Assembly: GCA_964503885.1 (NCBI GenBank)
Contig: CAZDCD010000008.1
Span: forward strand, 82,088 to 146,087
Source of the DNA: an uncultured Bacteroidales bacterium
GTDB taxonomy: Bacteria; Bacteroidota; Bacteroidia; Bacteroidales; UBA10428
DNA length: 64,000 nucleotides
Direction: 5' to 3'
The notes beneath the pieces are model-generated. The model saw only the letters and a program-made list of their open reading frames with translations. It did not search any database and was not told the DNA's origin. Below, piece by piece: positions 11,569 through 29,264 of the stretch. A program made the translations under genes and the position numbers. Position 1 is the first letter of the stretch. Every line of letters starts with the position of its first letter.

Positions 11569-13131
11569 TTATAACAATGGAGATTCGTTTATGCCAATCT
11601 TTTCGCCGTTAATCCTTACTTCTTCATTATCTTTATAACTAATAGTGATTATCAGGTTTCCTGCCTCATCATACTTCTTCCAGTTTTTTTCCTTAATACC
11701 CTGAATATAATATTGTTCTTCCTTCAAATTTCCGTCGGCATAATAATATTTATGTTTACCATCAGGATTTCCCTGAATATAATTCCCTTCAAATTCCAAT
11801 ACATCATTATCGTATAAATATTTCCACTTCCCGTCTCGAAGTCCATTTACATAAGCCCCTATTTCTTTATGATCATTAACAAAATAGTACCAGTCTCCTT
11901 CCTTTTCTCCATCGAAGAATTCTCCCTTCGCAATAATATTTTCTGCCTCATCATATTCCACAGACAATCCTTCCTCAACTCCGTTATAATATTCTTCCTC
12001 TTTTCGAACTTTACCGTCATCGTAGTACCAGGTCCAGGTTCCGCTATATTTACCGTTTTTATATTCTCCCGATTGTTCTCTTTTTCCGTTTCCATAAAAA
12101 AAGTTCCACTCTCCGGTTTCCAGATTATTTTGATATTTTCCTTCAGATCTAAGTGTTCCCGTATCATAAAAATATTTCCATTTTCCTTCCTTTTTTCCAT
12201 CCTTATCAACAATGCCAACAGCTATCCTGATTCCATTTTCATTGTATATTTCAGAACCTATGACTTCTCCTTCATTGTCAAATGTTCTGTGTATACCTAC
12301 AGGAATGTTGTTTTTGTAAGTACCACTAAAAATCAAAAATCCTTCATCATTATACTTGTTTCTTACTTCCACACTATCTTCATTATTACTTTCATCTTCA
12401 GCGAGCTTGTCATTTTTATAATTCAGCACTAATGAAAGTTCTCCCTGACTGTTGTATTCTTTATAATTCCCATCCATTAGACCCTTTGAATAATTTATTT
12501 CTCGTCTAACTAAATAATTATCATCAAATTCCAACCATTTCCCCTCTTTTCGATTCTCCTCATCAAATCTGTTTATTTTTATTCGTTCTGCAAGTATGCC
12601 TTTGCTATAGATCAGAATAGTAATCACAATTCCATCTTCGTTATACTCATATACATTTCCATCGATTTTATTATCATTGTATTCCTCCACCCTTCTTAAG
12701 GTACCATTATTATAATACTGGTAAGCCTTTCCTTCTTTTTTATCATTTACATACAATATCCTAGATACTATATTTCCAATATATTCAGGCTTATCGTTTC
12801 TATTGCCATTGTATGTGTATGTATATCCGTTTCGCTTACCGTACAAATAATTGATTTTTTCCACGGTATCTCCATACACCGAATAAAATACCCAGGTACT
12901 GTCCAGAAGAAAATTTGTTCTCTTTCCTTCTGCTTTCAGAGTACCACTTAAATGATAAGTTTTCCAGAAACCATCTGGTTTACCGTTTCTCATGTATCCT
13001 TCACTTGAAATAATACCGTTTTTATAATAAAAAATGTTGTAACCGTTTGGATTTATAGTATCCTGGCTGTTAACGCGTAAAAACATAAAACAGGTCAAGA
13101 ATAATATGTTATAGATTATGTATTTTTTCAT
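11569..13131 (-). CDS. Exported MORN-variant repeat protein (YwqK-like)
   Basis: Signal peptide followed by many ~23-aa repeats of the type GxWkyyYxnGxlxxEGxYxxG. Confidence 0.8.
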
Positions 13132-16028: not shown

Positions 16029-19000
16029 ATGCTGAAAGGAAAAATGTCACCCGTGGAAATGATTTCCTTTATTCGAGGAGCTAAGATCAACACCTGGTTT
16101 GATCTTGGCATTTATATCGACTGGATACGTGAAAACAGAGCTACTCCGGCAATTGAATTTTCAGGCAGCTATCATGAGTTTCTTGCTCAAGAGCTTCAAC
16201 ATGGTCTCGCTTTCATCACTTTCCAGTTTTCAGTAGATGGTGTAAGTATTGAAATTGAAAAGTATGCAAAGGTTTTTCGGGAACTGATTGACGGGGTGAA
16301 GATTCATTATATAGCCGGAAAATTCTATCCCGATTCAAAAAGGAATATTCATAGTGACACGTACAAATTTGAACTTCGGGAAATTCAGGGTTTCGACAAA
16401 TGGAAATATTACCGGGATTTTTATTTTACACGGCTGGAAAGGGGAGGAGCCAGGTATAATCGACTGATCAGTGATCTGTGGCGGGATGTACTTATCATTA
16501 CGGAAAAGCTTGCCCATTATATTTACGAGCATAAAATCAATCTTCTTTTTATGGTAAATGTATGTTCCAATCCGGGAAATATTTCATTGGCTCTGGCGCT
16601 TGTTCTTATCTCTGAACTCATGGGAATTCCGGTGATCAACAATAATCATGATTTTTACTGGGAAGGTGGCAATAATCCGGCAGAAATTGAATCCAAAGGG
16701 TTAAAACCCGGACCCAGAGATTTCTTTTTCACCAATTATCATATCGGAGAGATCTTCTCACTGATTGAAATATTATTTCCCTGGGAGTCACGATCGTGGA
16801 TAAATGTCAATATCAATTGCAGTCAGTCAAAGCACCTGATCGAAAAGAAAGGGCATAATCCCGCGAATGTCACCGAGATTTGTACAGCGGTTGATACGGA
16901 TAAATTTGTCAATATCAGCAAAAGAAATAAGATAAATGCGTTTTTTCAGTTTGAAAAAATTCTGAGCCGTTATGGTAAAACATTGATCAGTTATTCAGTA
17001 GCCGATGTGATAAACAATAAACTGGTGGATCAAAAGGATCCCCGGCCTATTTTGATTGGACTGAAAACCCAGCCGCTGGTGAAGTTTTTAACCGAAAATA
17101 TTATTTTTCTTCAACCCACCAGGGTTATTTCAAGAAAGAAAATAGAGCTTGGATTTAAGTTAATCAGGCACTTGTTCGGCAATTCAAGCTTCACCGACAG
17201 GTTTAAACACACACCAAATCTCAAGGTTACGATTCTGGTTACCGGCCCGATAGCATCAGGGCATTTTGATTATTTTCATAAACTGATTTCCGATTTTGCC
17301 AGTTTGCTTAAATCGCTTGATGTTTCTTTGCGTGAGCGTGTTTTTCTGGCATTTTTATACAGTGAACTTGATAAAGAAAACTTTAAAAACAGGTTTAAAG
17401 AACCTGTTGGAATTCCGGAACTTTACAATATTTCCTCGCTGGTGCTGCTTCCGAGCAGAACAGAAGGACGCGGGCTTCCGATTATAGAAGCATCTGCTTG
17501 CGGAACACCCATATTGTGCAGACGGTATTTTCCCGAAAACGTTTATTCAGAAGTAATAGGGGAGCAATTGCCTGAAAATGAACGGCTGAAAGTATTGGAA
17601 TTCAACGGGAAAAAAATAACTGCAAAACATGCATTCAAGGTTCTTGAACGGGTGTTGTTTCCGCATAAATTTACCCATGAGGTTCTTCATAACAAAATGG
17701 CAGTCCAAAAAAGATTTAGCCTTAAGGCATTAACAAAAAATATTGAAGACATTTTGCTGCAGACTTATCACCAGGTAAAAAGGAATGAAAATTCCATGCG
17801 GATTACAGGTGAAATGGTAAGAAAGTATCTTACCCTTAATAATCAGGAGATTCCGTTATTATATACCATACTGAAAACAGATAATAGACAGTATCTGGCA
17901 GGCTACGGAAAGTTAAAGTACATGCTAAACTTAAAATCCCTGATCGATCCGAGTGCATTCAGGAACGAAGAACAACAAATCAAGGGATATATTTTCTCAT
18001 ATGCCCAATCGCTGGTAAAAAAAGGGAATACCAAATTACTTAAACGAATTCACATATTTTATAATGCAGTCGCCAATATTTTTATCTATCGGAAAGGAAA
18101 AGTGAAAATCCGTCATGATCATTCCTTTGCATACAGGCACAGGAATGAAAACCATTATCCTTACCAGGAGTTTACCCTTCAGGAATTGACAGGGCTTGTT
18201 AACATGCTGTATATTAGATTAGTCGGAAATCATCCTTCAAGAAGGATTGATGAGAGTTCACATTTTTTTACCGACTGGGATCTTGCGTTGGGACAAATGA
18301 CATCGAGCATTTATATTGCGATTGACGACCGCAAGATACTGATCAATAAAATGCAGTCGAATGTACCCGTTGGAATTTTCCCAGGAGATTATGTGAAATA
18401 TGAGCTTGAATTTTTTGCATTGCAGGCAATACGCTCAAGATTAAAACTAAAGATCGAAGATGAGTTGACGGAAGATATGATACTGGAACATCGCGATACT
18501 CTTGCTAAAATTTATTTATTTGCCCAGTCAGTTACGATAGGACGCTGGTTTAATGTGGATGAGATAAAGGAGTATATTGAGCATGGGCATGAAAATGAAT
18601 TATTTCTGTTATATAAACACGGAGTACTAAGAATTATTGAGACCCACCAGTGGTGCCTGGGTATCCATTTTTGCCAGATCGGCGAAAATGCACTGAAGGC
18701 CCTGAATGCCATTCATGAGCAGGATGGTTTTATCATTTCAAGCAGAATCGATGCCGCCATGATGACCGATATTGTAGATCTCGATAAATTTCATATCGGA
18801 CAAGCCGGCGATCCGGTTACGGCCAGCATGATGGGTATCGACAAGGGTGCCGGCTATATTCAATTTGTACCTGCAGGTATCAGAACCACACTGGCGTATC
18901 CCACACCTGTGCAAACTGCCAGGGACTTTCACAAGACACTTCACAGTGAATCATTCAGGAAGTTCGAATTAAAATATGGTGAAAAATACCTGTTTGATTT

Positions 19001-20207
19001 CATAAAAAAGGAATCGGAAGAGAATGGAACACCTGTAAATCAAATTCTTAGAATGATCAATGATGACAAGTCAGAAATTTCGCCGATTGATAACGGGTTT
19101 ATAAACGGACTGTATGAAGATGGAAATCCTTACAGCGGAGCATACGCCAAAGTTCGCATGCACAAAAACAACGGAAAATGGATTTTCAGGACCATTTCAA
19201 CAATGTCCAGACCTATGCAGGTTACCGAATTTGTTAAAAATTTCGAATTTACCAGCGGCAATTCAGTAAATATAGCCTGGAACGGAGGGTATATTCTAAA
19301 TAATGAGCTTGTTGGAAAGCTGGGTTTACCAGAATCATATATTGGTTCACCGTTAGGATTGCTTATTTCTGAGGGTATTTTACTGTGTCCGCCTTTATTC
19401 AATAAAGCAGCCATGCTTGTTGGTGCCGATAGCAAGGTGACAATACGAAAAGTCAATGTAAGAAAAGGAATCATAATCCGATGCAAAGATACGATTCTGA
19501 AAATGAGTGCTGAGCAGTATAATTTGCCCTCTCCGCCTGAAGGAGTCCCATGTTATTATGATCTGCTTTTTCCGGGGAATGAACTCGTTTCGAAAAACAG
19601 GGTAATCATCAGGCTTGCAGGCAACAAAATTAAAGAAGTCATATGGCCGCAGAATTCGAACTATGTGCGGATTATACCGGTCGGATTAACCCTATCCCTT
19701 CCTCTTGATCAGGTTCATGATGATCTGCTAAAGATCGAGGAGGAAATTATCATTGAGGTTTCAGGACTTGAAAATATCGTTCATGCTACCGGAGCCGGTC
19801 CCTTGCTTGTAAACAACGGAAGAATCTCTATCAATATGAAAGATGAAGGGTGGATGAGTGTAAACTCCATCAATACTCAGGCTGCCAGAATTGATTATAC
19901 CAACATGAGGGGACCAAAGATTGCTGCCGGAATTGATGATCAGGGAAATATTATTGTATTGGCTATCAATGGCAGAATTCGTGAATCTGTTGGAGCAACT
20001 CATCACGAGATGGCAGAAATTCTAATCGGAATGGGTGTTCAATCTGCAATGGGTTTTGATCCCGGAGGGAGCAGTACCCTCGTGGCTAATCATGAAGTAT
20101 TGAACATATCTCCATATAATCCCGATTACGATAAAAATATATATGCATTGCCACCACAGCCACGAGCTGTATCAAATGCAATCCTCGGCTATTTTAAGCA
20201 TAAGTAA
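16029..20207 (+). CDS. Large fusion protein: MggS-like GT4 glycosyltransferase, uncharacterised middle domain, and C-terminal NAGPA-like phosphodiester glycosidase domain
   Basis: N-terminal VDGVSIEIEK, NHDFYWEG, QPTRVISRK, SRTEGRGLPIIEA (GT4 ExxGxxxxEA). C-terminal NGGYILN, GAGPLLVNNG, GPKIAAG, AINGR...SVGAT, GFDPGGSSTL (compare NAGPA LDGGGSS). Start could be a downstream Met. Confidence 0.8.
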   Translation: MLKGKMSPVEMISFIRGAKINTWFDLGIYIDWIRENRATPAIEFSGSYHEFLAQELQHGLAFITFQFSVDGVSIEIEKYAKVFRELIDGVKIHYIAGKFYPDSKRNIHSDTYKFELREIQGFDKWKYYRDFYFTRLERGGARYNRLISDLWRDVLIITEKLAHYIYEHKINLLFMVNVCSNPGNISLALALVLISELMGIPVINNNHDFYWEGGNNPAEIESKGLKPGPRDFFFTNYHIGEIFSLIEILFPWESRSWINVNINCSQSKHLIEKKGHNPANVTEICTAVDTDKFVNISKRNKINAFFQFEKILSRYGKTLISYSVADVINNKLVDQKDPRPILIGLKTQPLVKFLTENIIFLQPTRVISRKKIELGFKLIRHLFGNSSFTDRFKHTPNLKVTILVTGPIASGHFDYFHKLISDFASLLKSLDVSLRERVFLAFLYSELDKENFKNRFKEPVGIPELYNISSLVLLPSRTEGRGLPIIEASACGTPILCRRYFPENVYSEVIGEQLPENERLKVLEFNGKKITAKHAFKVLERVLFPHKFTHEVLHNKMAVQKRFSLKALTKNIEDILLQTYHQVKRNENSMRITGEMVRKYLTLNNQEIPLLYTILKTDNRQYLAGYGKLKYMLNLKSLIDPSAFRNEEQQIKGYIFSYAQSLVKKGNTKLLKRIHIFYNAVANIFIYRKGKVKIRHDHSFAYRHRNENHYPYQEFTLQELTGLVNMLYIRLVGNHPSRRIDESSHFFTDWDLALGQMTSSIYIAIDDRKILINKMQSNVPVGIFPGDYVKYELEFFALQAIRSRLKLKIEDELTEDMILEHRDTLAKIYLFAQSVTIGRWFNVDEIKEYIEHGHENELFLLYKHGVLRIIETHQWCLGIHFCQIGENALKALNAIHEQDGFIISSRIDAAMMTDIVDLDKFHIGQAGDPVTASMMGIDKGAGYIQFVPAGIRTTLAYPTPVQTARDFHKTLHSESFRKFELKYGEKYLFDFIKKESEENGTPVNQILRMINDDKSEISPIDNGFINGLYEDGNPYSGAYAKVRMHKNNGKWIFRTISTMSRPMQVTEFVKNFEFTSGNSVNIAWNGGYILNNELVGKLGLPESYIGSPLGLLISEGILLCPPLFNKAAMLVGADSKVTIRKVNVRKGIIIRCKDTILKMSAEQYNLPSPPEGVPCYYDLLFPGNELVSKNRVIIRLAGNKIKEVIWPQNSNYVRIIPVGLTLSLPLDQVHDDLLKIEEEIIIEVSGLENIVHATGAGPLLVNNGRISINMKDEGWMSVNSINTQAARIDYTNMRGPKIAAGIDDQGNIIVLAINGRIRESVGATHHEMAEILIGMGVQSAMGFDPGGSSTLVANHEVLNISPYNPDYDKNIYALPPQPRAVSNAILGYFKHK

Positions 20208-20253: not shown

Positions 20254-20292
20254 TAAAAAAATACCCCCGTCCAATTCATGAACAGGGGTATT
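20254..20292 (-). terminator. Probable intrinsic terminator downstream of the receiver-only gene
   Basis: AATACCCC (20260-20267) pairs with GGGGTATT (20285-20292). The adjacent A run gives a U tract on the minus strand. Confidence 0.5.
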
Positions 20293-20409: not shown

Positions 20410-20790
20410 TCAATATGAGTATTCTATTGAAATGGCTTTTTCCAGTGATTCTTTGCTGATCTCATCTTTAATGATGTAGCTTCGGGCGCCGGCTTCGATC
20501 ATCTGCACAATATATTTCATTTCGGAATGAAACGATACTGCCACGATCACCAGATTCCTGTAAAGCATTGTGGCTTCGCGTGTGGCTTCAATACCATTCA
20601 GACCGGGCATATTTATATCCATAAAAACAATGTCATACAATTTACTTTTAAGCACTTCCAGGCAATCCCTGCCGTCATTTACTGCACTGATGGTATCGAT
20701 TTTATCCTCAAAAGAATCTGTTAACATGAATTTTAATGCATTGCAGAAATGTGGATTATCATCTACTATCAATACTTTAAGCTTCTTCAT
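20410..20790 (-). CDS. Stand-alone response regulator receiver domain (NarL-type REC, no output domain)
   Basis: VLIVDD, FMDINMPGLNG (phospho-Asp), VAVSF, SYIIKD. Start set at ATG 20790 because the -7 element lies at 20806-20813. Confidence 0.9.
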   Translation of the reverse strand: MKKLKVLIVDDNPHFCNALKFMLTDSFEDKIDTISAVNDGRDCLEVLKSKLYDIVFMDINMPGLNGIEATREATMLYRNLVIVAVSFHSEMKYIVQMIEAGARSYIIKDEISKESLEKAISIEYSY

Positions 20791-20805
20791 ATAGGGAATT
20801 TTATA

Positions 20806-20920
20806 CAAATATACCCGGTTTGCTTAATTTAAGATAGAGTTAATGTACGCAATTATAGGATTTTTCTACGTAAATTTTGAGGTAGTAAATACCTATATTG
20901 CTCTGAGTATTTTCCGACAT
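20806..20920 (-). promoter_or_regulatory. Promoter P1 with four-site regulator array (drives the receiver-only gene)
   Basis: -7 TATATTTG (rc, 20806-20813). Plus-strand TACGCAATT at offset 40, TACGTAAA at 61, TACCTA at 84, inverted GTATTTTCCGAC at 101. Confidence 0.7.
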
Positions 20921-21019
20921 GATGATAAAAGTGTACTGATTTTAATCCAGCTACTTAACCAATGAGAGTGTAAAATAAAAAAAGCATATAGTTACAGTTA
21001 AGGGTTTTATATAAAGTCA

Positions 21020-21048
21020 AACGGGATGTCATTTTTTGGCATCCCGTT
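21020..21048 (-). terminator. Hairpin ending the candidate sRNA
   Basis: AACGGGATGTCA-TTTTT-TGGCATCCCGTT (12 bp with one imperfect pair); the U tract is weak. Confidence 0.5.
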
Positions 21049-21142
21049 ATCCCACCTAAATCCAACCAAACCCTAAAACTAGCTAAACCCTTTTTAACTT
21101 TAAAAACCCTGTATTCTTAACACTTAAATATGAAAATCTTTA
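21020..21142 (-). ncRNA. Candidate ~120-nt small RNA with three AGGGUUU repeats
   Basis: Own -7 element (21148-21155) and regulator array, no credible ORF, AAACCCT x3 on the plus strand (21068, 21085, 21104), and a closing 12-bp hairpin at 21020-21048. The ends are estimates. Confidence 0.5.
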
Positions 21143-21147
21143 GGATA

Positions 21148-21262
21148 CAAAAATAAAGTGTATATGATGCTAAAATGATAGTGGAAATACCTAATTTTCA
21201 AGAAATATTACCCAAAACCCGGTAGGTAATAACCTCCATGAATATTGCGTATTTTCCGACAT
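21148..21262 (-). promoter_or_regulatory. Promoter P2 with four-site regulator array (drives the candidate sRNA)
   Basis: -7 TATTTTTG (rc, 21148-21155). TACCTAATT at offset 40, TACCCAAA at 61, AACCTC at about 83, and GTATTTTCCGACAT at 101 (14-bp identity with P1 at the same offset). Confidence 0.7.
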
Positions 21263-21558
21263 TATTTCCGTACTATTTTAAGCAATTCAAAGTTGCGGTT
21301 TTTCTTTTCTTCCAGAAACTCTCTGATATATTTATCATTCAATCCGTTTGAATATTTCTGGATCCGGATAATATCATCATTTATTTTTTGAACATCAGGT
21401 ATACCCGGATTGCTCACGAGAAGGCTGTTAAAATTCTTTTTAAGCAAATTCAAAATTTCCATTTTTGAATGATCCTTATTAGCCTTACTGAGCAAATGAA
21501 AAACCTCTCTTCTTATTTTATATGAAAGATCGTTATCGTATTGCACAAGCGCTTCCAT
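21262..21558 (-). CDS. Small hypothetical helical protein (98 aa)
   Basis: ATG-started ORF with a charged, amphipathic composition, preceded by promoter P3. No family recognised. Confidence 0.6.
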   Translation of the reverse strand: MEALVQYDNDLSYKIRREVFHLLSKANKDHSKMEILNLLKKNFNSLLVSNPGIPDVQKINDDIIRIQKYSNGLNDKYIREFLEEKKNRNFELLKIVRK

Positions 21559-21639
21559 AATGTTGATTCAAAAGTTGCCGCAGATAATGAAGTTAAGATT
21601 CCGTGTCAAATCCTTTTCGATATTCGTATTTTCTGCAAT

Positions 21640-21755
21640 CAAAATTAGTTCAACAATTATGGCAGAAGCACCGCGCTAACTACTCAATTTTCATGAAAAA
21701 ATACGCAAATATATCTGGCGGTTTTTACGCATAATATCATGTGTAAAAACCGCCA
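21640..21755 (-). promoter_or_regulatory. Promoter P3 with four-site regulator array (drives the 98-aa ORF)
   Basis: -7 TAATTTTG (rc, 21640-21647). TACTCAATT at offset 41, TACGCAAA at 62, TACGCA at 86, inverted GTAAAAACCGCC at 103. The last two form a near-perfect 17-bp inverted repeat at 21716-21755. Confidence 0.68.
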
Positions 21756-21835
21756 AAATTTTGTTGAATACCAATTGAAGACAGTACCATTGGTAATGAT
21801 TACAGCCCTGGCATAAAACCCTATGAAATGAAGAT

Positions 21836-22471
21836 TCAGATGGAAACAAGCTTGTTCTTAATGGCATATACGACCAGACTGATCGAATTTTTTGATTCGG
21901 TTTTCTGCAATAAGCTTGATCGATGTCTTTCCACTGTTCGCTGACTGATGAACAGCGTATTGGAGATTTGCTGGTTTGAATACCCTTTGCAGATCAGTTC
22001 AAGCACTTCCTTTTCTCTCCGGGTTAAAGGGATAGCCTGATCAGATGATTTATCTTTAATCAGGTTAAGTAACAGTTCCTGTGAAAAAAAATTGCCGCCA
22101 TTGGTAACTTTGAGGATGGCATCGTGCAATTCATTGTTATCAATATCCTTCAGAATAAAGCCTTTAACACCCATATCAATCATTGTATTGTAATATTTGG
22201 TATCGCCAAACATAGATAGGACGAGGATGTTTAATTGCGGGTATTTCTGAAGTGCCAGTTGAGCTGCTTCAACGCCATTCATTACCGGCATATTGATATC
22301 CAGCAATACCACATCAGGAAGCCCATAAGTGAGAAGCTCGAGAAACTCTTTCCCGTTGGATGCTTCTCCTATTACTTCCAGGTCATCGGATTCGTTTAAA
22401 ATAAACTTTAAACCGCTTCTGAAAAGCTGGTGGTCATCCACGATAATTAGTTGCTTCCTTTTCATTGCCAT
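21836..22471 (-). CDS. NarL/FixJ-family DNA-binding response regulator (REC plus LuxR HTH)
   Basis: IVDDHQLFRSG, LLDINMPVMNG, GFILKD, LTRREKEVLELICKGYSNQQIS...RTVERHR. Confidence 0.95.
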   Translation of the reverse strand: MAMKRKQLIIVDDHQLFRSGLKFILNESDDLEVIGEASNGKEFLELLTYGLPDVVLLDINMPVMNGVEAAQLALQKYPQLNILVLSMFGDTKYYNTMIDMGVKGFILKDIDNNELHDAILKVTNGGNFFSQELLLNLIKDKSSDQAIPLTRREKEVLELICKGYSNQQISNTLFISQRTVERHRSSLLQKTESKNSISLVVYAIKNKLVSI

Positions 22472-22660
22472 GAAATGAGTAACAGTATTGCTGCGTTAAT
22501 TGTGGTTTAGTCTCACCAGCTTCAAAGCGTTTTTCTTATTCAACACTCTGTGATATCTTATTTCGAATGACCTGATCCGTTGTTTACTGGTCCGATTGCT
22601 GTGAATTTTGAATATCCGAAATTACTAAAATAATCTCTATTCCTCAATTTACTGAGGTGA

Positions 22661-25600
22661 TTAAACAGGAATATTCAATTCAAATGACATCCCTTTACCT
22701 GGTTCTGAAAGATAGGAATACCTTCCTTTTAAGGATCTTACGCGGCTTATAATATTTGAAATACCCATCCCGAGAGTAACTTTCTGATCGAAATTTACAT
22801 AATCAAAGCCAACGCCATTATCTTTAAAATTCAACCTGAGGTTTTTACCTTCGAGCACTATTCTTAATTGTATTTCTGCAGCTCCGGCATGTTTTATGGT
22901 ATTATTGATCAACTCTTTGATGATCCTGTATAATGAGGTTTCAATTTCATCTGAAAACCGGTTATCGGCAATGTTGCTTTGAAATTTGATAACTATGTGC
23001 TCTTCCACATTTCTGGCAAATGACTCTATGGATGCATAAAGGCCATAGTTTTTCAGAATGTGCGGGCTCAGATCATTTGAAATTTCTTTTGTGCTCTGAA
23101 TGGCTTCCTTAACAATTTCATTCAACTGGTCGATAATAAATTTCTGTTTTTCTATTTCCTGAATGCTATCAATGGTATTAACATACATTTTAATACTCGA
23201 CAGGAGAGGACCCAGATCGTCATGCAGGTTTTTAGCAAATTTTTCCCTTTCTTTTTCTTCTGTTCTTATTATTGCATCAAGTATTTTTTTCTCCATAAAT
23301 TTCATCTCGGTGATGTCTTCATAGGTGCCAAGAACTCCTATTGTACTCCCTGTAGCATTCTTAAGGGGAATTTTACTTGTTTTAAGCCATATCTTGTGAC
23401 CATCGGGTGTGGTTTGAGGTTCCTCATAATTCATGATTGAAACAGCATCTGACAATACCTTCCTGTCGTCGGCACGATACAGATCTGCCTCCGATTTCCA
23501 CGAAAGCTGGTAATCGTCCATTCCGATTATTTTAAACGGATCGTCAAAACCTGCATCCTGGGCAAAAAGTTTATTACAGCCAAGGTATTTGAATTCACTG
23601 TTTTTCCAAAATACCCTCACAGGAATTGTATTCAGGATTATCTGCAACATACTGTTGGCTTCAGCAAGCTGTGCTTCCCTTTCATATAGCGCGTTTTCAG
23701 CGGCTTTTCTGGAGGTAATATCCCGCACTATTGCCTGCAGGTATATTTCTCCGGAAAACTCAATTCTTTGTAAGGCAACTTCGGCATCGAAGTGCACCCC
23801 ATCGAATTTGATATGCTGCCATTCGAAAAACTGGGGAACCCCGTCATATGCCGCTTTAATTTTCTCCATACCTTTTTCAAGTGAATCTCTTCCGTCGGGT
23901 TGTTTCTGCGGTGAAAACCTGAACGGGGTCTGGTTAAGGATTTCTTCCCTACTGCACCCATACATTTTTAATGTTGCACTATTGCAATCCACAAACTTAT
24001 TTTCCTTCATCATAAAAATGGCATCGCTGGCAGATTCAAAGAGCAACCTGAATTTTTGTTCACTTTCCACAAGGGCTCTTTCAGATAGCTTTCTTTCGGT
24101 AATATCTCTGAATAATGCCTGTAAACGACCGTCTGCGAGCATTTTAGTGTTCATTTCCACTTCGATGCTTTTACCATCTTTTCGTGTAAGATACCGCTCA
24201 TTGATCACATTTTGGCCTGATCTTACAAGGTCATAGCGCAACGGTTTTGCTTTTATTTCATTATTCCGGAAAAGCATTTCGATTTTTTGGTTAATCAATT
24301 CGTTTTTTTCAAACCCCGATATTTTGCACATGCTTGAGTTTGCATTGGTAATGATACCATCTTCATTTCCCACAAGAATACCGTCGGCAGCCTGTTCGAA
24401 TAAAGTGCGGTATCGTTCCTCACTTTCCATCAAAGCATGTTGCGATAGTTTGCGTTCAGTTACTTCATAAACCGAAGCCAGGAGCTTTGAGGGATTCCCG
24501 TCTTTATTGTATTCAAAGATTATGGCCGAAACAGATACCCAGATCATTTTGTTATCTTTCCTTGTTAACCTGAGTTCAAACTCAAAGGTCTTGTCTTTCA
24601 CATTGTTTTTTAAACCTGAAACAGTATTGATTACCAGGTTAAAATCTTCAGGATGTATTATTTCTTTGAGATTATCTTTTAACCGGTATATCTCTTCACT
24701 GGTATAACCGGTTATACCAGTAATCTTTTCAGAGACATAAGAAATACTAAGGCATTCAAGATCGAAAATTACAAAAACAGTGGGCGAGGTATTTATAATA
24801 CCCTGCAGGTATTTATTTGTATTCTTCAGCTCTTCCTCGGCTTTAATTCGTTCCGATATATTTTCAAATGCCACTCCGACCCTGTTTCTTGGAAGTGGAA
24901 ATGCCTTGACTGAAAATGCTCCTGAAATGACCCTCTCATCGGAATAATAAATATCACTGATTTCAATGGGGATTTTTGTTTGAACGACATCGAAATATTT
25001 TTGCGGAATGCCTTTTTCACGCAGTCCCGGAAAATTCTCATCGAGTGTTTTTCCGATGATCTCACCAACCGGAACACCGGTTAATTTTTCTGTGGCAGGA
25101 TTTGCAGCGATCATCCTCAATGTTTTATTGTCGTCCGGATCCTCCAATTCATAGATATGAATTCCTGTCTGTATGTTTTCAAACAGGTCGGCTGCCTGCT
25201 GCAACACCTCTTCGGTCTTTTTTCTTTCGGAAATATCACGAATAACTGCCAAAACGCGCTTGCTACCTGCGATATGAGCACTTTTTAAGGATACTTCAGT
25301 CCAAAATGTTGACCCATCTTTTCTTTTACTCATCCACTTAAAAATCTGAGGCCGTTTGGTGGCTGCTTTTTTCACCAGGGCTAAAGCTTTCCTGCTGGTT
25401 TCTTCTGACTTTCCGGCGCTTAAATCGCCGGCCCGGTTGCCGATTATTTCGTCATAGCTGTAACCAAACATATCAAGAGTTGCCTTATTCACGTCAAGGA
25501 TTTTACCGGTATCGATCTCATGAATAAATATTGATTCCGATGTGGCGTTAAAGATCTCTCTATAATTCTGTTCACTTTTCATCAACGAGATCAGGGAATT

Positions 25601-26722
25601 CTTCCGGTTCAATGCATTGACGAATATCTGGCCGGCCATTTTTAGCAGGTAGAAATCAGTATCCGTCTTTTCAGATAATTTCTTCGTAGAATTAAAACAA
25701 AGCAGGGCCAGAGGAAAACCTTGCAGGGTGATTTGCATAATTATGCCTGCATTCAATCCCAGCTCTTTCATAGTGATTTTTAGTTTATTTGCTGTCTGGG
25801 GTATATGATTTAACGAAGGAATAAATACAATTTCATGATCAATCAATTCATTATTCATCCACGGGATTTCATCCGGATTTATCGAACACAATTTTTTAGT
25901 ATTAAAAGTTTCTTCCTTTTTAATCCATTGATGAGTGATCATAAACTTGTCATGCTCATAGTCAAACATCAGGATATGTCCTTCATCGCAATCTATAAAT
26001 CCGGCGATTTCACCAAGGGCCTTAACAATCTCGTTATCCACATTCTCAGGTGGAATATTAATAAATTGCGTGGATATCCCGGAAAGCAGTCTTTCAAAAT
26101 GATTCCTGTATAACAGATCGTTCTCGATTTTTTTTACAGCAGTTATATCTCTCTGTGTGCTCCAGATGCCGGTAAGTTTATTGCCGAGGATTATGCCTAC
26201 GGAATTGTTTAATATATACACCGTGTCTCCATCATCATTTACACTTTCCAAAAAAAGGTTCGTAATTTTATATCCTGAATGAACAAAATCTGTGATCAGT
26301 TTCTTTATATTACCGCAGTCTTCTTTTTTCAGGATTGTCCGGACAGGTGTGCCGATAAGATCTTCTTTATGCTTATACCCCAAACGTTGGGCATAAGCAA
26401 GGTTACATTCTGCAAAAAAACTTTCGTTAAAAATTTCCTGTACCTGTTTTTTTTCAGAATATTCAAGAGAGACAGGTTTCCCAAATTCAATCATGAATAT
26501 GGATTCACTGCTTCTTTCAACGAATATCCTGTATTTTGATTCACTCTGCTTCAATTCATTTGATCGTTCATTAACCAGCAGTTCGAGGTAGTCTCTGTAT
26601 TTCTCAAGTTCTTCCACGGAAAACGATCCGGCTTTTTTATGCCGCTTTTTCAACATTTGGTTTTCCTTTTCGAGAAATTTAATCCTTGAAGTCAGCTCTG
26701 AATAGGAAACTCGATTTTCCAT
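22661..26722 (-). CDS. Soluble multi-PAS/GAF sensor histidine kinase (HisKA_3 type)
   Basis: About seven PAS/PAC repeats ending in RDITERK-like motifs, one GAF-like segment, H box [35 protein letters not shown]. No transmembrane segment seen. Confidence 0.93.
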
Positions 26723-27974: not shown

Positions 27975-29264
27975 TCAGGCTAGTTTTAACACTTTGACCA
28001 TCAACTCGTTAAGCTTTTCCTCAAGTGTTTCGTAGGAGAACAGTTTTTTTCCAAGGTAGTAGTTGAATTCACCGATCTCACGGTTAAGCTTCTCATTATA
28101 AATTATTTCTTTCATCTGTTCGATGGCCTTGTCAGTCAGCTGGCTTTCTTCAATCATCACCGTTTTAAAACCCTTGCTTCCGATATCAGGCCAGTAAACC
28201 GGCTTATAATTGTTCACGAATATGGGGCGTTTGGCCAGCACAGCCTCAACAAAGGCATTTCCAAATCCCTCGTAGGTGCTGAAATAGGTGCAAGCCCTTG
28301 CCTGGGCATAGGCATCGGAGAGTGAATAGTTCAAATCACCTGAATGTGAAGTAAGTCCCTTATTGTTAAAAAGATGATAAGCAAACGAAACCTGGTCACC
28401 TAATTTAAGTGTGTGTATCAATTCCACAAGCTCCATATAGTATTTGCTTCCAGCATCATCGTTATAATTACCTGTAATAATAAGCTTTACTCGCTTATCA
28501 TTAAGTTTGTCCATCAACTGAATAGCCGTTTCAATGCCTTTTCTCCCCACAACCCGGGTTACCTGAAAAAGAAGAATATCATCACAATTGAATCCCAGAT
28601 TCAGGTGCAGGTATTTATTTCTTTCGGTAACTTCTCCGAATGGCTGATCAAAATCCATTACATTCGGTACAATGATCGAATCGCGGTTAAATTTCTCTTT
28701 AAGTGTATGCTGAGCGGGCGTATTAATTACTGCATGAACAGAATTGGGTAACCTGAGCGGGAAAGTATTATTGATGAACTGGTTGATCTTGAAATAAGGT
28801 GATTCATATCTGTTGCCCCTTTCCCATGCAAAATCGTGATCATGGGTTATTGTCGGCAGACCGAGTTTTTCAACCGCCTTTTTTATGGCCAGCCCCATTT
28901 CAAGGTGTGAAGGAAGCGCCGAGGCATTTTCGGATATCAGCAATTCAATTTTCCGGGCATGAACCCAATCTATTATTTTTTTGTAAATAACTTTTGAATA
29001 CAGGTCGATATGTTCGAGCAATTCATCTTCGTTTGAATCGGGATGAAAAAATGCTTTTTTCTGTCCCCAGTAGCTTTCGGGTGAGAAAAAAGACATCTCC
29101 ATTACCAGTGTTTCATATTTGGAGTCCATCGCTCTTTCCTCAAACTGACCGGATATTATAAACACTTCGTGTCCCATTCTTCTAAGTACTTCAATCCATT
29201 TTTCGGTTTCAAGAGCAACCCCGTCGACACCTCCGATTCTGCCAATAATAATGCCTATTTTCAT
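27975..29264 (-). CDS. GT4 glycosyltransferase, mannosylglucosylglycerate synthase (MggS)-like
   Basis: VDGVALETEKW...MGHEV, HDHDFAWER, QVTRVVGRKGIE, STYEGFGNAFVEA. Confidence 0.82.
   Translation of the reverse strand: MKIGIIIGRIGGVDGVALETEKWIEVLRRMGHEVFIISGQFEERAMDSKYETLVMEMSFFSPESYWGQKKAFFHPDSNEDELLEHIDLYSKVIYKKIIDWVHARKIELLISENASALPSHLEMGLAIKKAVEKLGLPTITHDHDFAWERGNRYESPYFKINQFINNTFPLRLPNSVHAVINTPAQHTLKEKFNRDSIIVPNVMDFDQPFGEVTERNKYLHLNLGFNCDDILLFQVTRVVGRKGIETAIQLMDKLNDKRVKLIITGNYNDDAGSKYYMELVELIHTLKLGDQVSFAYHLFNNKGLTSHSGDLNYSLSDAYAQARACTYFSTYEGFGNAFVEAVLAKRPIFVNNYKPVYWPDIGSKGFKTVMIEESQLTDKAIEQMKEIIYNEKLNREIGEFNYYLGKKLFSYETLEEKLNELMVKVLKLA

What the first reader, a model, noticed from the sequence alone, without database searches (positions are those of the whole stretch)
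16029..20207. 1392-aa glycosyltransferase-phosphodiester glycosidase fusion: a possible make-and-cleave enzyme
Seen: GT4 motifs in roughly residues 55-575 (VDGVSIEIEK near 16236, SRTEGRGLPIIEA near 17454), a ~450-aa middle region I cannot assign, and a NAGPA-like C-terminus with altered signature residues (PKIAAG for PRTAIG; FDPGGSS near 20055 for LDGGGSS). No signal peptide or transmembrane segment. Established: MggS-type GT4 enzymes make glycosylglycerate compatible solutes; NAGPA-family enzymes cleave sugar-1-phosphodiesters and are usually exported. Inference: a cytoplasmic enzyme that adds a sugar and then uncaps or recycles a sugar-phosphodiester, i.e. an undescribed solute or glycan pathway. 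The altered residues could instead mean a binding-only domain.
Basis: partly seen in the sequence, partly recalled or inferred. Interest (0 to 1): 0.75.

Follow-up and report, generated by a model that had tools for sequence, protein, structure and literature searches.

The report
Three-domain cytoplasmic sugar enzyme, function unknown
The 1392-residue gene is real and conserved in over 500 mostly marine or anaerobic Bacteroidales-type species; it joins a sugar-adding enzyme to a phosphatase-like domain (newly identified here) and a sugar-phosphate-cleaving domain, and nobody has studied this combination.

Summary
ORF 16029..20207 (+) encodes 1392 aa with no signal peptide or transmembrane segment. 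It has a GT4 glycosyltransferase N-terminus with an intact EX7E motif. Its C-terminus is NAGPA-family, with DPGGS in place of the motif DGGGS.

New here: the unassigned middle (aa ~587-1012) is a divergent DUF89/ARMT1-like "damage-control phosphatase" domain. Foldseek matches PH1575 at E 4.5e-8, and one divergent family member passes Pfam PF01937. In the window protein, however, the canonical DUF89 nucleophile and metal motifs are lost.

The architecture is not an artefact. Full-length relatives occur in 526 species genomes, including cultured Marinifilum and Ancylomarina, with conserved gene order. More distant full-length members (21-43% identity) also exist.

No conserved partner gene points to a pathway, and no paper on the fusion was found in the searched library. 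The MggS label is not supported (47 bits against a cutoff of 640).

Best reading, with moderate confidence: a self-contained cytoplasmic enzyme of soluble sugar-phosphate or glycoside metabolism. An active retaining GT4 would be coupled to a rigid C-terminal module that binds, and probably cleaves, a sugar-phosphate linkage on a sugar other than GlcNAc. A purely regulatory C-terminal module remains a serious rival.

The parts
16029..20207 (+). Whole ORF, 1392 aa plus stop. The start codon is uncertain among codons 1, 6 and 11.
16200..17777 (+). GT4-type retaining glycosyltransferase domain with a GT-B fold (aa ~58-583). It is preceded by a ~57-aa helical N-terminal extension.
   Evidence: AF2 model with pLDDT 87. 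Foldseek matches GlgM, MshA, HepE, SPS and BshA at E ~1e-13. Pfam PF00534 and PF13692.
17463..17489 (+). EX7E motif of GT4 enzymes (E479-GRGLPII-E487). It is invariant in the Bacteroidales relatives and >=90% conserved in the divergent set.
17787..19064 (+). Divergent DUF89/ARMT1-like domain (aa ~587-1012): a helical bundle followed by a Rossmann-like alpha/beta part.
   Evidence: Foldseek matches 2g8l at E 4.5e-8 (TM 0.63), 1xfi at 2e-7 and 2ffj at 1e-5. PF01937 scores 37.8 bits in family member P0180 and gives weak hits in 3 more members. The window protein itself has no Pfam hit here.
18114..18143 (+). Invariant but flexible loop H-D-H-S-F-A-Y-R-H-R (aa 696-705). D697 is invariant across the whole family, including the outgroup. 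Possibly equivalent to the mobile lid of DUF89 enzymes.
   Evidence: pLDDT below 50 at model residues 111-120. Conservation. Lid Asp described in PMC9062747.
18378..18392 (+). Position of the canonical DUF89 'DNxGxE' nucleophile and metal motif. Here it reads F-P-G-D-Y and D787 is not conserved. Member P0180 keeps FCDGAGE...ENDIT.
19086..20204 (+). NAGPA-fold (phosphodiester glycosidase, PF09992) domain, aa ~1020-1392, with an inserted beta-rich segment.
   Evidence: Foldseek matches 5h3k at E 5.5e-23, 6ozd, 6pkg/6pki/6pku/6pky and 3ohg. Pfam 73 bits. PDB sequence hits.
20058..20072 (+). D1344-P-G-G-S1348, the counterpart of the DGGGS motif of NAGPA. The Asp and Ser are kept and the first Gly is replaced by Pro.
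   Evidence: PMC13474241
20163..20165 (+). R1379, invariant in the Bacteroidales relatives. It is the likely counterpart of the phosphate-binding Arg316 of human NAGPA, assigned by position only.
20260..20292 (.). GC-rich hairpin between the convergent ends of this gene and the response-regulator gene. Terminator-like, scored on the minus strand.
27975..29264 (-). Stand-alone 429-aa GT4, MggS-like at 209 bits (below the 640 cutoff). It is a distant paralogue (21% identity) of the N-terminal domain and lies nearby in 40 of 49 relatives that have enough flank. Any functional link is unproven.

Best explanation
Shown: this is a real, soluble, cytoplasmic three-domain protein. The domains are (i) a retaining GT4 glycosyltransferase with intact catalytic motifs, (ii) a divergent DUF89/ARMT1-like phosphatase-fold domain, and (iii) a NAGPA-fold domain of the family that cleaves the sugar-C1-O-phosphate bond.

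Inferred: it works as a self-contained enzyme of soluble sugar-phosphate or glycoside metabolism.
- The GT4 domain transfers a sugar from an NDP-sugar to a small acceptor, probably phosphorylated or a sugar-1-phosphate. GlgM, MshA and sucrose-phosphate synthase work this way.
- The rigid DUF89-like/NAGPA-like module then binds the phosphorylated product and removes the phosphate-linked part.
- The NAGPA-like site keeps its Asp, its Ser and probably its Arg. It has lost the contacts that recognise the N-acetyl group, so its sugar is probably not GlcNAc.
- The DUF89-like domain has lost the canonical aspartyl nucleophile. If it is catalytic, it must use its own conserved residues (D697, D766, D914, R952). 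Otherwise it serves as a phosphate-binding or lid module for its neighbour.
For: - Architecture and conservation: 784 homologues, the best 120 all full length, and 526 species genomes. Divergent full-length members at 21-43% identity keep all three domains.
- GT4: GT-B fold. EX7E (E479/E487) and the QPTR-x3-RK segment are invariant in the close relatives (R365 also across the divergent set).
- NAGPA: Pfam 73 bits and Foldseek E 5.5e-23 to ~3e-12. D1344, G1346, G1347, S1348 and R1379 are conserved. Human D286 and R316 are essential (PMC13474241).
- DUF89: fold match and PF01937 above threshold in P0180.
- Rigid module: the DUF89-like and NAGPA-like domains are modelled together with pTM 0.87. 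The many invariant His/Asp/Arg residues in the middle domain argue for a functional site.
- No partner genes: context differs between lineages and is mostly housekeeping, which fits a pathway carried in one polypeptide.
- Precedent for NAGPA fused to a phosphoesterase: ShfP-family calcineurin-like proteins (PMC11488536).
- Precedent for synthase-plus-phosphatase logic: MggA/MggB (PMC3736172 abstract).
Against: - No activity, substrate or expression data exist, and no RNA run was found.
- The DUF89 nucleophile and metal motifs (DN...ND) are absent from the window protein and from nearly all members.
- The DGGGS motif is described as strictly invariant, and G287A impairs human NAGPA. Here that position is Pro.
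- Four divergent members have lost the Asp-containing motif altogether (P0124, P0133, P0180, P0215), so NAGPA-type catalysis is not essential everywhere in the family.
- The Foldseek GT4 hits do not separate soluble from lipid acceptors; WaaG and PimB' score almost as well.
Confidence: 0.4

Rival explanations
1. Only the GT4 domain is catalytic. The DUF89-like and NAGPA-like domains are degenerate pseudo-enzyme modules that bind a sugar phosphate and regulate or scaffold the transferase. The non-catalytic SPP-like domain of many sucrose-phosphate synthases is the comparison (from my own knowledge, not checked here).
For: - The canonical DUF89 nucleophile and metal ligands are lost.
- The DGGGS motif is altered to DPGGS.
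- Several divergent members have lost the motif Asp altogether yet keep the rest of the domain, including GRIRESVGAT.
- The two domains are modelled as one rigid unit.
Against: - D1344, S1348 and R1379 are conserved in most members.
- The middle domain has a dense set of invariant His/Asp/Arg residues, more than a scaffold would need.
- A secreted outgroup keeps the same tandem with a canonical DGGGS motif (P0211).
Confidence: 0.3
2. The protein works at the cytoplasmic face of the membrane on polyprenyl-phosphate-linked sugars, which are themselves sugar-1-phosphodiesters. The GT4 domain would extend a lipid-linked glycan. The NAGPA-like and DUF89-like domains would cleave or recycle dead-end lipid-linked intermediates to free the carrier lipid.
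For: - Many GT4 enzymes use lipid-linked acceptors, and WaaG and PimB' are good fold matches.
- NAGPA chemistry fits sugar-1-P-OR bonds.
- The divergent VanZ-family neighbour is adjacent in 48 of 61 relatives.
- A GT2 gene lies next to one distant member.
Against: - There is no transmembrane or obvious membrane-anchoring segment.
- No polysaccharide or LPS gene cluster surrounds it in any lineage examined.
- The neighbours are mostly housekeeping genes.
Confidence: 0.12
3. One reading: an MggS-type synthase of glycosylglycerate compatible solutes (mannosylglucosylglycerate or similar), fused to an enzyme that recycles the solute.
For: - MggS (NF041101) is the best NCBIfam hit for the N-terminal domain.
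- A closer MggS-like paralogue lies 8 kb away.
- The organism comes from salt marsh, and many relatives are marine.
Against: - The score is 47.5 bits against an equivalog cutoff of 640.
- Identity to the MggS-like paralogue is only 21%.
- No gpgS, gpgP or glycerate genes were seen nearby.
- Relatives also live in non-saline habitats.
- Glycosylglycerates contain no phosphodiester for a NAGPA-type enzyme to cleave.
Confidence: 0.05
4. The long ORF is an assembly or gene-calling artefact that joins separate genes.
For: None found.
Against: - The same architecture occurs in 526 species genomes, including isolates.
- Contigs from independent runs span both domain junctions at 100% identity.
- The AF2 models are confident across the junction.
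Confidence: 0.01

Closest known systems
NAGPA / uncovering enzyme (Pfam PF09992, phosphodiester glycosidase; structures 6PKG, 6PKU; bacterial 5H3K Slr0280, 6OZD, 3OHG)
   Same: Same fold (Foldseek E 5.5e-23 to ~3e-12) and the same family motifs: NGG-aromatic, GP-x-L, (D/N)GR-x3-S-x-G, and D-x-GGS. The motif Asp and Ser are kept, and an Arg ~35 residues downstream is kept.
   Different: This protein is cytoplasmic rather than luminal or exported. The first Gly of DGGGS is Pro, so the backbone NH that binds the N-acetyl group is missing. The E226/T227 sugar loop is replaced by TQAAR, and PRTAIG becomes PKIAAG. It is fused behind two other domains. No bacterial member of the family appears to have a characterised substrate in the literature searched.
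DUF89 / ARMT1-like damage-control phosphatases (PF01937; PH1575 2G8L, At2g17340 1XFI, AF1104 2FFJ; S. pombe Duf8901)
   Same: Same two-part fold of a helical bundle plus a Rossmann-like domain. Sequence homology is significant in family member P0180. A conserved Asp sits in a mobile loop. A D914...R952 pair has the same 38-residue spacing as D363...K401 of Duf8901 (an inference from spacing alone).
   Different: The aspartyl nucleophile and Asn (DN) and the third metal ligand (ND) are absent from the window protein. It has its own conserved motifs: HDHSxxYRHR, ID(D/N)R and FVPAGxR. It is never found free-standing; it occurs only inside this ~1400-aa architecture.
GT4 synthases of phosphorylated glycosides paired with a phosphatase (sucrose-phosphate synthase + SPP, MshA + MshA2, MggA + MggB, GlgM)
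   Same: Retaining GT-B GT4 fold with EX7E. These are the top structural matches. They share the logic of a synthase coupled to a phosphate-removing step (otherwise established knowledge).
   Different: The attached phosphatase-like domain is DUF89-type, not HAD-type. A third, NAGPA-like domain is present. Donor and acceptor are unknown.
ShfP-family extracellular calcineurin-like phosphoesterases fused to NAGPA (PMC11488536)
   Same: A phosphoesterase domain and a NAGPA domain in one polypeptide.
   Different: Those proteins sit at the cell surface with adhesion domains, have a different phosphoesterase fold, and carry no glycosyltransferase.

Membership tests
GT4 retaining glycosyltransferases (Pfam Glycos_transf_1) | GT-B fold of two Rossmann domains | tested here: met
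   AF2 model with pLDDT 87. Foldseek prob 1.0, E ~1e-13, TM 0.63-0.73 to GlgM, MshA, HepE and BshA.
GT4 retaining glycosyltransferases (Pfam Glycos_transf_1) | EX7E motif and a basic residue pair for the NDP phosphates | tested here: met
   E479...E487 and R365, R369 and K370 are invariant in 32 and 57 relatives. E479 and E487 are >=90% conserved, and R365 conserved in at least 33 of 34, in the divergent set.
GT4 retaining glycosyltransferases (Pfam Glycos_transf_1) | Pfam gathering score | tested here: met
   PF00534 33.5 bits against 26.4, and PF13692 27.3 against 27. Only the 42-47 residue core around EX7E is matched.
Mannosylglucosylglycerate synthase MggS (NCBIfam NF041101 equivalog) | Score at or above the curated cutoff of 640 bits | tested here: not met
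   47.5 bits. Even the neighbouring stand-alone GT4 reaches only 209 bits.
NAGPA / phosphodiester glycosidase (PF09992) | Pfam gathering score and fold | tested here: met
   73.1 bits against 25. Foldseek E 5.5e-23 to ~3e-12 against all solved members.
NAGPA / phosphodiester glycosidase (PF09992) | DGGGS motif, reported as strictly invariant | tested here: not met
   The motif reads D1344-P-G-G-S, with Pro invariant in the close relatives. Motif definition from PMC13474241.
NAGPA / phosphodiester glycosidase (PF09992) | Essential Asp (human D286) and phosphate-binding Arg (human R316) | tested here: inconclusive
   D1344 aligns directly.
NAGPA / phosphodiester glycosidase (PF09992) | GlcNAc N-acetyl recognition (E226, T227, G287 backbone NH) | tested here: not met
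   The aligned residues are T1283, Q1284 and P1345.
NAGPA / phosphodiester glycosidase (PF09992) | Hydrolysis of a sugar-1-phosphodiester | not testable with these tools
   Needs an enzyme assay.
DUF89 / ARMT1-like metal-dependent phosphatases (PF01937) | Fold | tested here: met
   Foldseek matches 2g8l at E 4.5e-8 (TM 0.63), 1xfi at 2e-7 and 2ffj at 1e-5.
DUF89 / ARMT1-like metal-dependent phosphatases (PF01937) | Pfam gathering score | tested here: not met
   No hit in the window protein even at E 10. It is met only in divergent member P0180 (37.8 bits against 25), with weak hits in P0178, P0215 and P0154.
DUF89 / ARMT1-like metal-dependent phosphatases (PF01937) | Asp nucleophile plus Asn (DN) and a third Asp ligand (ND) that bind the metal | tested here: not met
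   The window protein has F-P-G-D787-Y, with D787 unconserved, and no ND motif. P0180 keeps FCDGAGE...ENDIT. Residue roles from PMC9062747.

The most novel reading that the evidence does not exclude
All three domains are active and form a one-polypeptide pathway for a so far undescribed cytoplasmic sugar-phosphate or sugar-phosphodiester metabolite, such as a compatible solute or storage glycoside of marine and anaerobic Bacteroidales. The glycosyltransferase would build it. A NAGPA-type domain with a new (non-GlcNAc) specificity would cleave the sugar-1-phosphate bond. A DUF89-fold domain with a relocated active site would remove the phosphate. This would be the first cytoplasmic function, and the first defined bacterial substrate, for the NAGPA family.
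Probability: 0.2. Interest if true: 0.75.

Novelty: new variant of a known kind. Interest (0 to 1): 0.55.

Why it matters
NAGPA-family proteins are common in bacteria, but the only well-understood member is the animal lysosomal uncovering enzyme. In the literature searched here, no bacterial substrate is known.

This family places a NAGPA-type domain in the cytoplasm and ties it physically to a sugar-adding enzyme and a phosphatase-fold domain. It is conserved in hundreds of Bacteroidales-type species from sediments, salt marshes and digesters.

Because the three modules sit in one protein and no partner genes are needed, a few in vitro assays on one recombinant protein could reveal a new piece of sugar-phosphate metabolism. 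Such assays would also show how two well-known catalytic motifs (DGGGS in NAGPA, DN...D in DUF89) can be rewritten. If the C-terminal half turns out to be inert, this would instead be a clear case of pseudo-enzyme domains recruited to regulate a glycosyltransferase.

Tried and rejected
- **Sequence searches of the middle region.** Pfam at E 10, a family profile against PDB sequences, and phmmer of P0178 and of the P0180 middle domain against PDB gave nothing. Only the structure comparison and Pfam scans of divergent members identified the domain.
- **Gene neighbourhood as a functional clue.** The strong synteny in Bacteroidales (ruvB, MORN, nadA, rpiB, Rrf2, vanZ | gene | hemW, GT4, unknown) consists of housekeeping genes. 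It is best explained by shared ancestry. Distant lineages have different neighbours: phaE-phaC, guaA, and ribosomal genes with prs and a GT2. No conserved partner emerged.
- **Expression.** No RNA run holds the sequence.
- **Assembly artefact.** Rejected.
- **MggS identity.** Rejected on score.
- **Residue-level superposition of the model on DUF89 and NAGPA structures.** Not possible, because model coordinates are not exposed. The catalytic-residue mapping for R1379, D914 and R952 therefore rests on alignment and spacing only.
- **Literature.** Searches for DUF2233, PF09992, 'phosphodiester glycosidase', and NAGPA with DUF89 found no paper on this fusion.

Full report
**1. The observation**

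The window holds one uninterrupted ORF at 16029..20207 on the + strand, 1392 codons plus stop.
- VDGVSIEIEK at aa 69-78
- SRTEGRGLPIIEA at aa 476-488
- PKIAAG at aa 1296-1301
- FDPGGSS at aa 1343-1349

Pfam reports the following:
- NAGPA (PF09992) at aa 1248-1385, 73 bits against a cutoff of 25
- Glycos_transf_1 at aa 459-500, 33.5 bits against 26.4

The region between the two has no Pfam match even at E = 10. A hydropathy scan finds no signal peptide and no credible transmembrane helix. The most hydrophobic 19-mer (aa 185-203) lies inside the Rossmann core of the transferase. The start codon is uncertain among codons 1, 6 and 11; the public gene call for this same sequence begins at M11 (P0001).

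**2. The gene is real and the fusion is conserved**

- A search of 5.8 billion proteins gave 784 hits. The best 120 are all 1302-1419 aa, cover 93-100% of the query at 52-63% identity, and carry the same Pfam domains. Where named, they are called 'phosphodiester glycosidase family protein' or 'glycosyltransferase', from Bacteroidales or Bacteroidota MAGs.
- A scan of one genome per species found relatives in 526 genomes. These include the isolates Marinifilum fragile JCM 15579, Marinifilum sp. RC60d5 and Ancylomarina longa.
- The window sequence itself is present in several salt-marsh metagenome runs. Contigs from independent runs span both domain junctions without a single difference.
- An assembly artefact is therefore excluded.

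**3. The N-terminal domain**

An AlphaFold2 model of aa 1-610, built with 56 relatives, has mean pLDDT 87. It matches retaining GT-B glycosyltransferases of family GT4 at E ~1e-13 and TM 0.63-0.73. The matches include GlgM (maltose-1-phosphate synthase), MshA, HepE, sucrose-phosphate synthases, BshA, WaaG and PimB'.

The EX7E motif (E479...E487) and the QPTR-x3-RK segment (R365, R369, K370) are invariant in the close relatives; EX7E and R365 are also conserved in the divergent set, while R369 and K370 are not. The domain therefore looks catalytically competent.

The MggS label is not justified. NF041101 scores 47.5 bits against a cutoff of 640. Identity to the stand-alone MggS-like GT4 eight kilobases away (27975..29264, minus strand; 209 bits) is only 21%.

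**4. The middle domain: the new finding**

A model of aa 586-1392 has pLDDT 86 and pTM 0.87. Besides NAGPA structures, it matches three DUF89 proteins:
- PH1575 (2g8l): E 4.5e-8, TM 0.63
- At2g17340 (1xfi): E 2e-7
- AF1104 (2ffj): E 1e-5

The predicted secondary structure of aa ~587-1012 is a helical bundle followed by an alpha/beta domain and closing helices. This is the DUF89 layout.

An exhaustive HMMER search with this region found only 107 clusters among 1.84 billion representatives. Nearly all are in proteins of ~1380-1560 aa or in fragments of them. The domain is therefore essentially confined to this architecture.

Scanning 29 divergent members against Pfam gave PF01937 (ARMT1-like / DUF89) in four of them. 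P0180 scored 37.8 bits, above the cutoff of 25, at E 1.6e-9. Homology to DUF89 thus rests on both fold and sequence.

The catalytic machinery, however, is not kept. DUF89 phosphatases use these residues (PMC9062747):
- an Asp nucleophile and an Asn (DN) after one strand
- a further Asp (ND) after the next strand
- a lid Asp
- a general acid/base Asp
- a Lys

P0180 keeps 'FCDGAGE...ENDIT'. The window protein reads F784-P-G-D-Y at that site, with D787 unconserved, and has no ND. Almost all other members have Gly or Ser there.

The family has its own strictly conserved residues:
- H696-D697-H698-S-x-x-Y-R-H-R, in a loop that AlphaFold models with pLDDT below 50
- I-D766-(D/N)-R after the first strand of the alpha/beta domain
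- E792/E794
- D914, D919, H922
- P948-A-G-x-R952

The spacing D914...R952 is 38 residues, equal to D363...K401 in Duf8901, and D697 sits in a mobile loop like the lid Asp. These equivalences are inferences from spacing.

**5. The C-terminal domain**

Residues ~1020-1392 adopt the NAGPA fold:
- 5h3k Slr0280: E 5.5e-23
- 6ozd: E 6.6e-16
- the vertebrate uncovering enzymes: E 3e-14 to ~3e-12
- 3ohg: E 2.7e-12

A 2026 structural paper (PMC13474241) supplies the reference points:
- DGGGS is described as strictly invariant from bacteria to man.
- D286 and R316 are essential.
- The backbone NH of G287, together with E226 and T227, holds the N-acetyl group of GlcNAc.

Here the motif is D1344-P-G-G-S. 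The Asp, two Gly and the Ser are kept, and the Pro is invariant among close relatives. An invariant Arg (R1379) lies 35 residues downstream, where R316 would be expected. The sugar loop reads T1283-Q1284 in place of E226-T227.

The site therefore looks able to cleave a sugar-1-phosphate bond but not built for GlcNAc. Two cautions apply:
- Four divergent members (P0124, P0133, P0180, P0215) have lost the motif Asp altogether.
- A secreted outgroup (P0211 and P0218) has a signal peptide and a different N-terminal region without GT4. P0211 lies on a contig with chlamydial-type neighbours. This outgroup carries the same DUF89-like/NAGPA tandem with canonical DGGGS in P0211 and DGGSS in P0218.

**6. 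Genomic context**

In Bacteroidales relatives the gene order is strikingly conserved:

ruvB, MORN-repeat protein, nadA, rpiB, Rrf2 regulator, vanZ (divergent) | this gene | hemW, stand-alone GT4 (opposite strand), a coiled-coil protein

- In about 50 of 60 loci, hemW starts within roughly 30 nt of the stop codon.
- In the window, a 6.5-kb block lies between this gene and hemW (20410..26722, minus strand). It holds two response regulators, a small ORF and a 1353-aa multi-PAS histidine kinase.
- A hairpin follows the gene, so here it is monocistronic.
- These neighbours are housekeeping genes, and all these loci come from one order, so the synteny says little about function.
- In distant lineages the neighbours differ: phaE-phaC upstream with an SSF transporter and a Ser/Thr kinase downstream, guaA, or ribosomal genes with prs and a GT2.
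- No partner is conserved across lineages, which fits an enzyme that carries its pathway in one chain.

**7. Mechanism**

Shown:
- three domains, a cytoplasmic location and family-wide conservation
- an intact GT4 motif set
- a partly intact NAGPA motif set
- a DUF89 fold without the canonical nucleophile

Inferred:
- The GT4 domain transfers a sugar from an NDP-sugar to a small, probably phosphorylated acceptor. Its closest structural relatives GlgM, MshA and SPS do this.
- The rigid C-terminal module binds the phosphorylated product and cleaves the sugar-phosphate linkage.
- The DUF89-like domain acts either through a relocated acidic site or as a phosphate-binding lid.
- The pairing of a NAGPA domain with a phosphoesterase has a precedent in extracellular ShfP-family proteins (PMC11488536).
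- The pairing of a glycoside-phosphate synthase with a phosphatase is the standard route to sucrose, mycothiol precursors and mannosylglucosylglycerate (and established knowledge).

I put 0.4 on this reading. The main rival (0.3) is that the C-terminal half is a pseudo-enzyme used for ligand sensing, like the inactive SPP-like domain of many sucrose-phosphate synthases (my own knowledge).

**8. Novelty and verdict**

Each domain belongs to a known family. The three-domain architecture, the cytoplasmic NAGPA domain with DPGGS, and the rewritten DUF89 domain are not described in any paper I could find.

I class it as a new variant of known kinds. It is of moderate to good interest because it is widespread, self-contained and directly testable with one recombinant protein from a cultured Marinifilum or Ancylomarina strain.

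Noticed in passing
window 27975..29264 (-): Stand-alone 429-aa GT4 that resembles mannosylglucosylglycerate synthase over its full length (209 bits, cutoff 640). It is a 21%-identical paralogue of the big protein's N-terminal domain. It lies downstream in 40 of 49 relatives with enough flank. There it is usually followed by an uncharacterised ~297-aa protein with a predicted N-terminal membrane helix and coiled coil; that protein is absent from the window.
   Followed up: partly
window 20410..26722 (-): A block lies between the big gene and hemW: a CheY-like receiver, a 98-aa ORF, a LuxR-type response regulator and a 1353-aa multi-PAS histidine kinase. In about 50 of 60 related loci, hemW starts within ~30 nt of the big gene's stop. 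The block therefore looks like a lineage-specific insertion (also seen in L001 and L004) that breaks a likely operon.
   Followed up: partly
P0211 and P0218 (L092:8001-12680): Outgroup proteins of 1559-1562 aa. P0211 has an N-terminal signal-peptide-like sequence; both have a ~640-aa N-terminal region without GT4 or any Pfam hit, then the same DUF89-like domain, and a NAGPA domain with canonical DGGGS (P0211) or DGGSS (P0218). The P0211 contig has chlamydial-type neighbours (Chlam_OMP6, CLIPPER). This suggests the DUF89-like/NAGPA tandem is older than its fusion to GT4.
   Followed up: partly
L081, L082, L085, L086, L090: In a GC-rich lineage (P0178, P0200, P0186), the orthologue sits directly downstream of phasin, MaoC, phaE and phaC (polyhydroxyalkanoate synthase), except in L090, where the gene lies at the end of the retrieved stretch and no upstream sequence was seen. 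It is followed by a small 133-193-aa ORF, an SSF transporter, a Ser/Thr kinase and a YscO-like gene. This could be a link to carbon storage or just local synteny.
   Followed up: no
L074 and L037: MAGs labelled Thiohalospira sp. and Chlorobiota carry the gene with typical Bacteroidales flanking genes and ~52-53% identity. These contigs are probably binning contamination or mislabelled bins.
   Followed up: no
window 11569..13131 (-): A 520-aa MORN-repeat protein with an N-terminal signal-like sequence. It is conserved between ruvB and nadA in most related loci, and its function is unknown.
   Followed up: no
window 16029..16061: Three in-frame ATG codons (codons 1, 6, 11). The public gene call uses the third, and relatives align from about codon 5, so the true start is unresolved.
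   Followed up: partly
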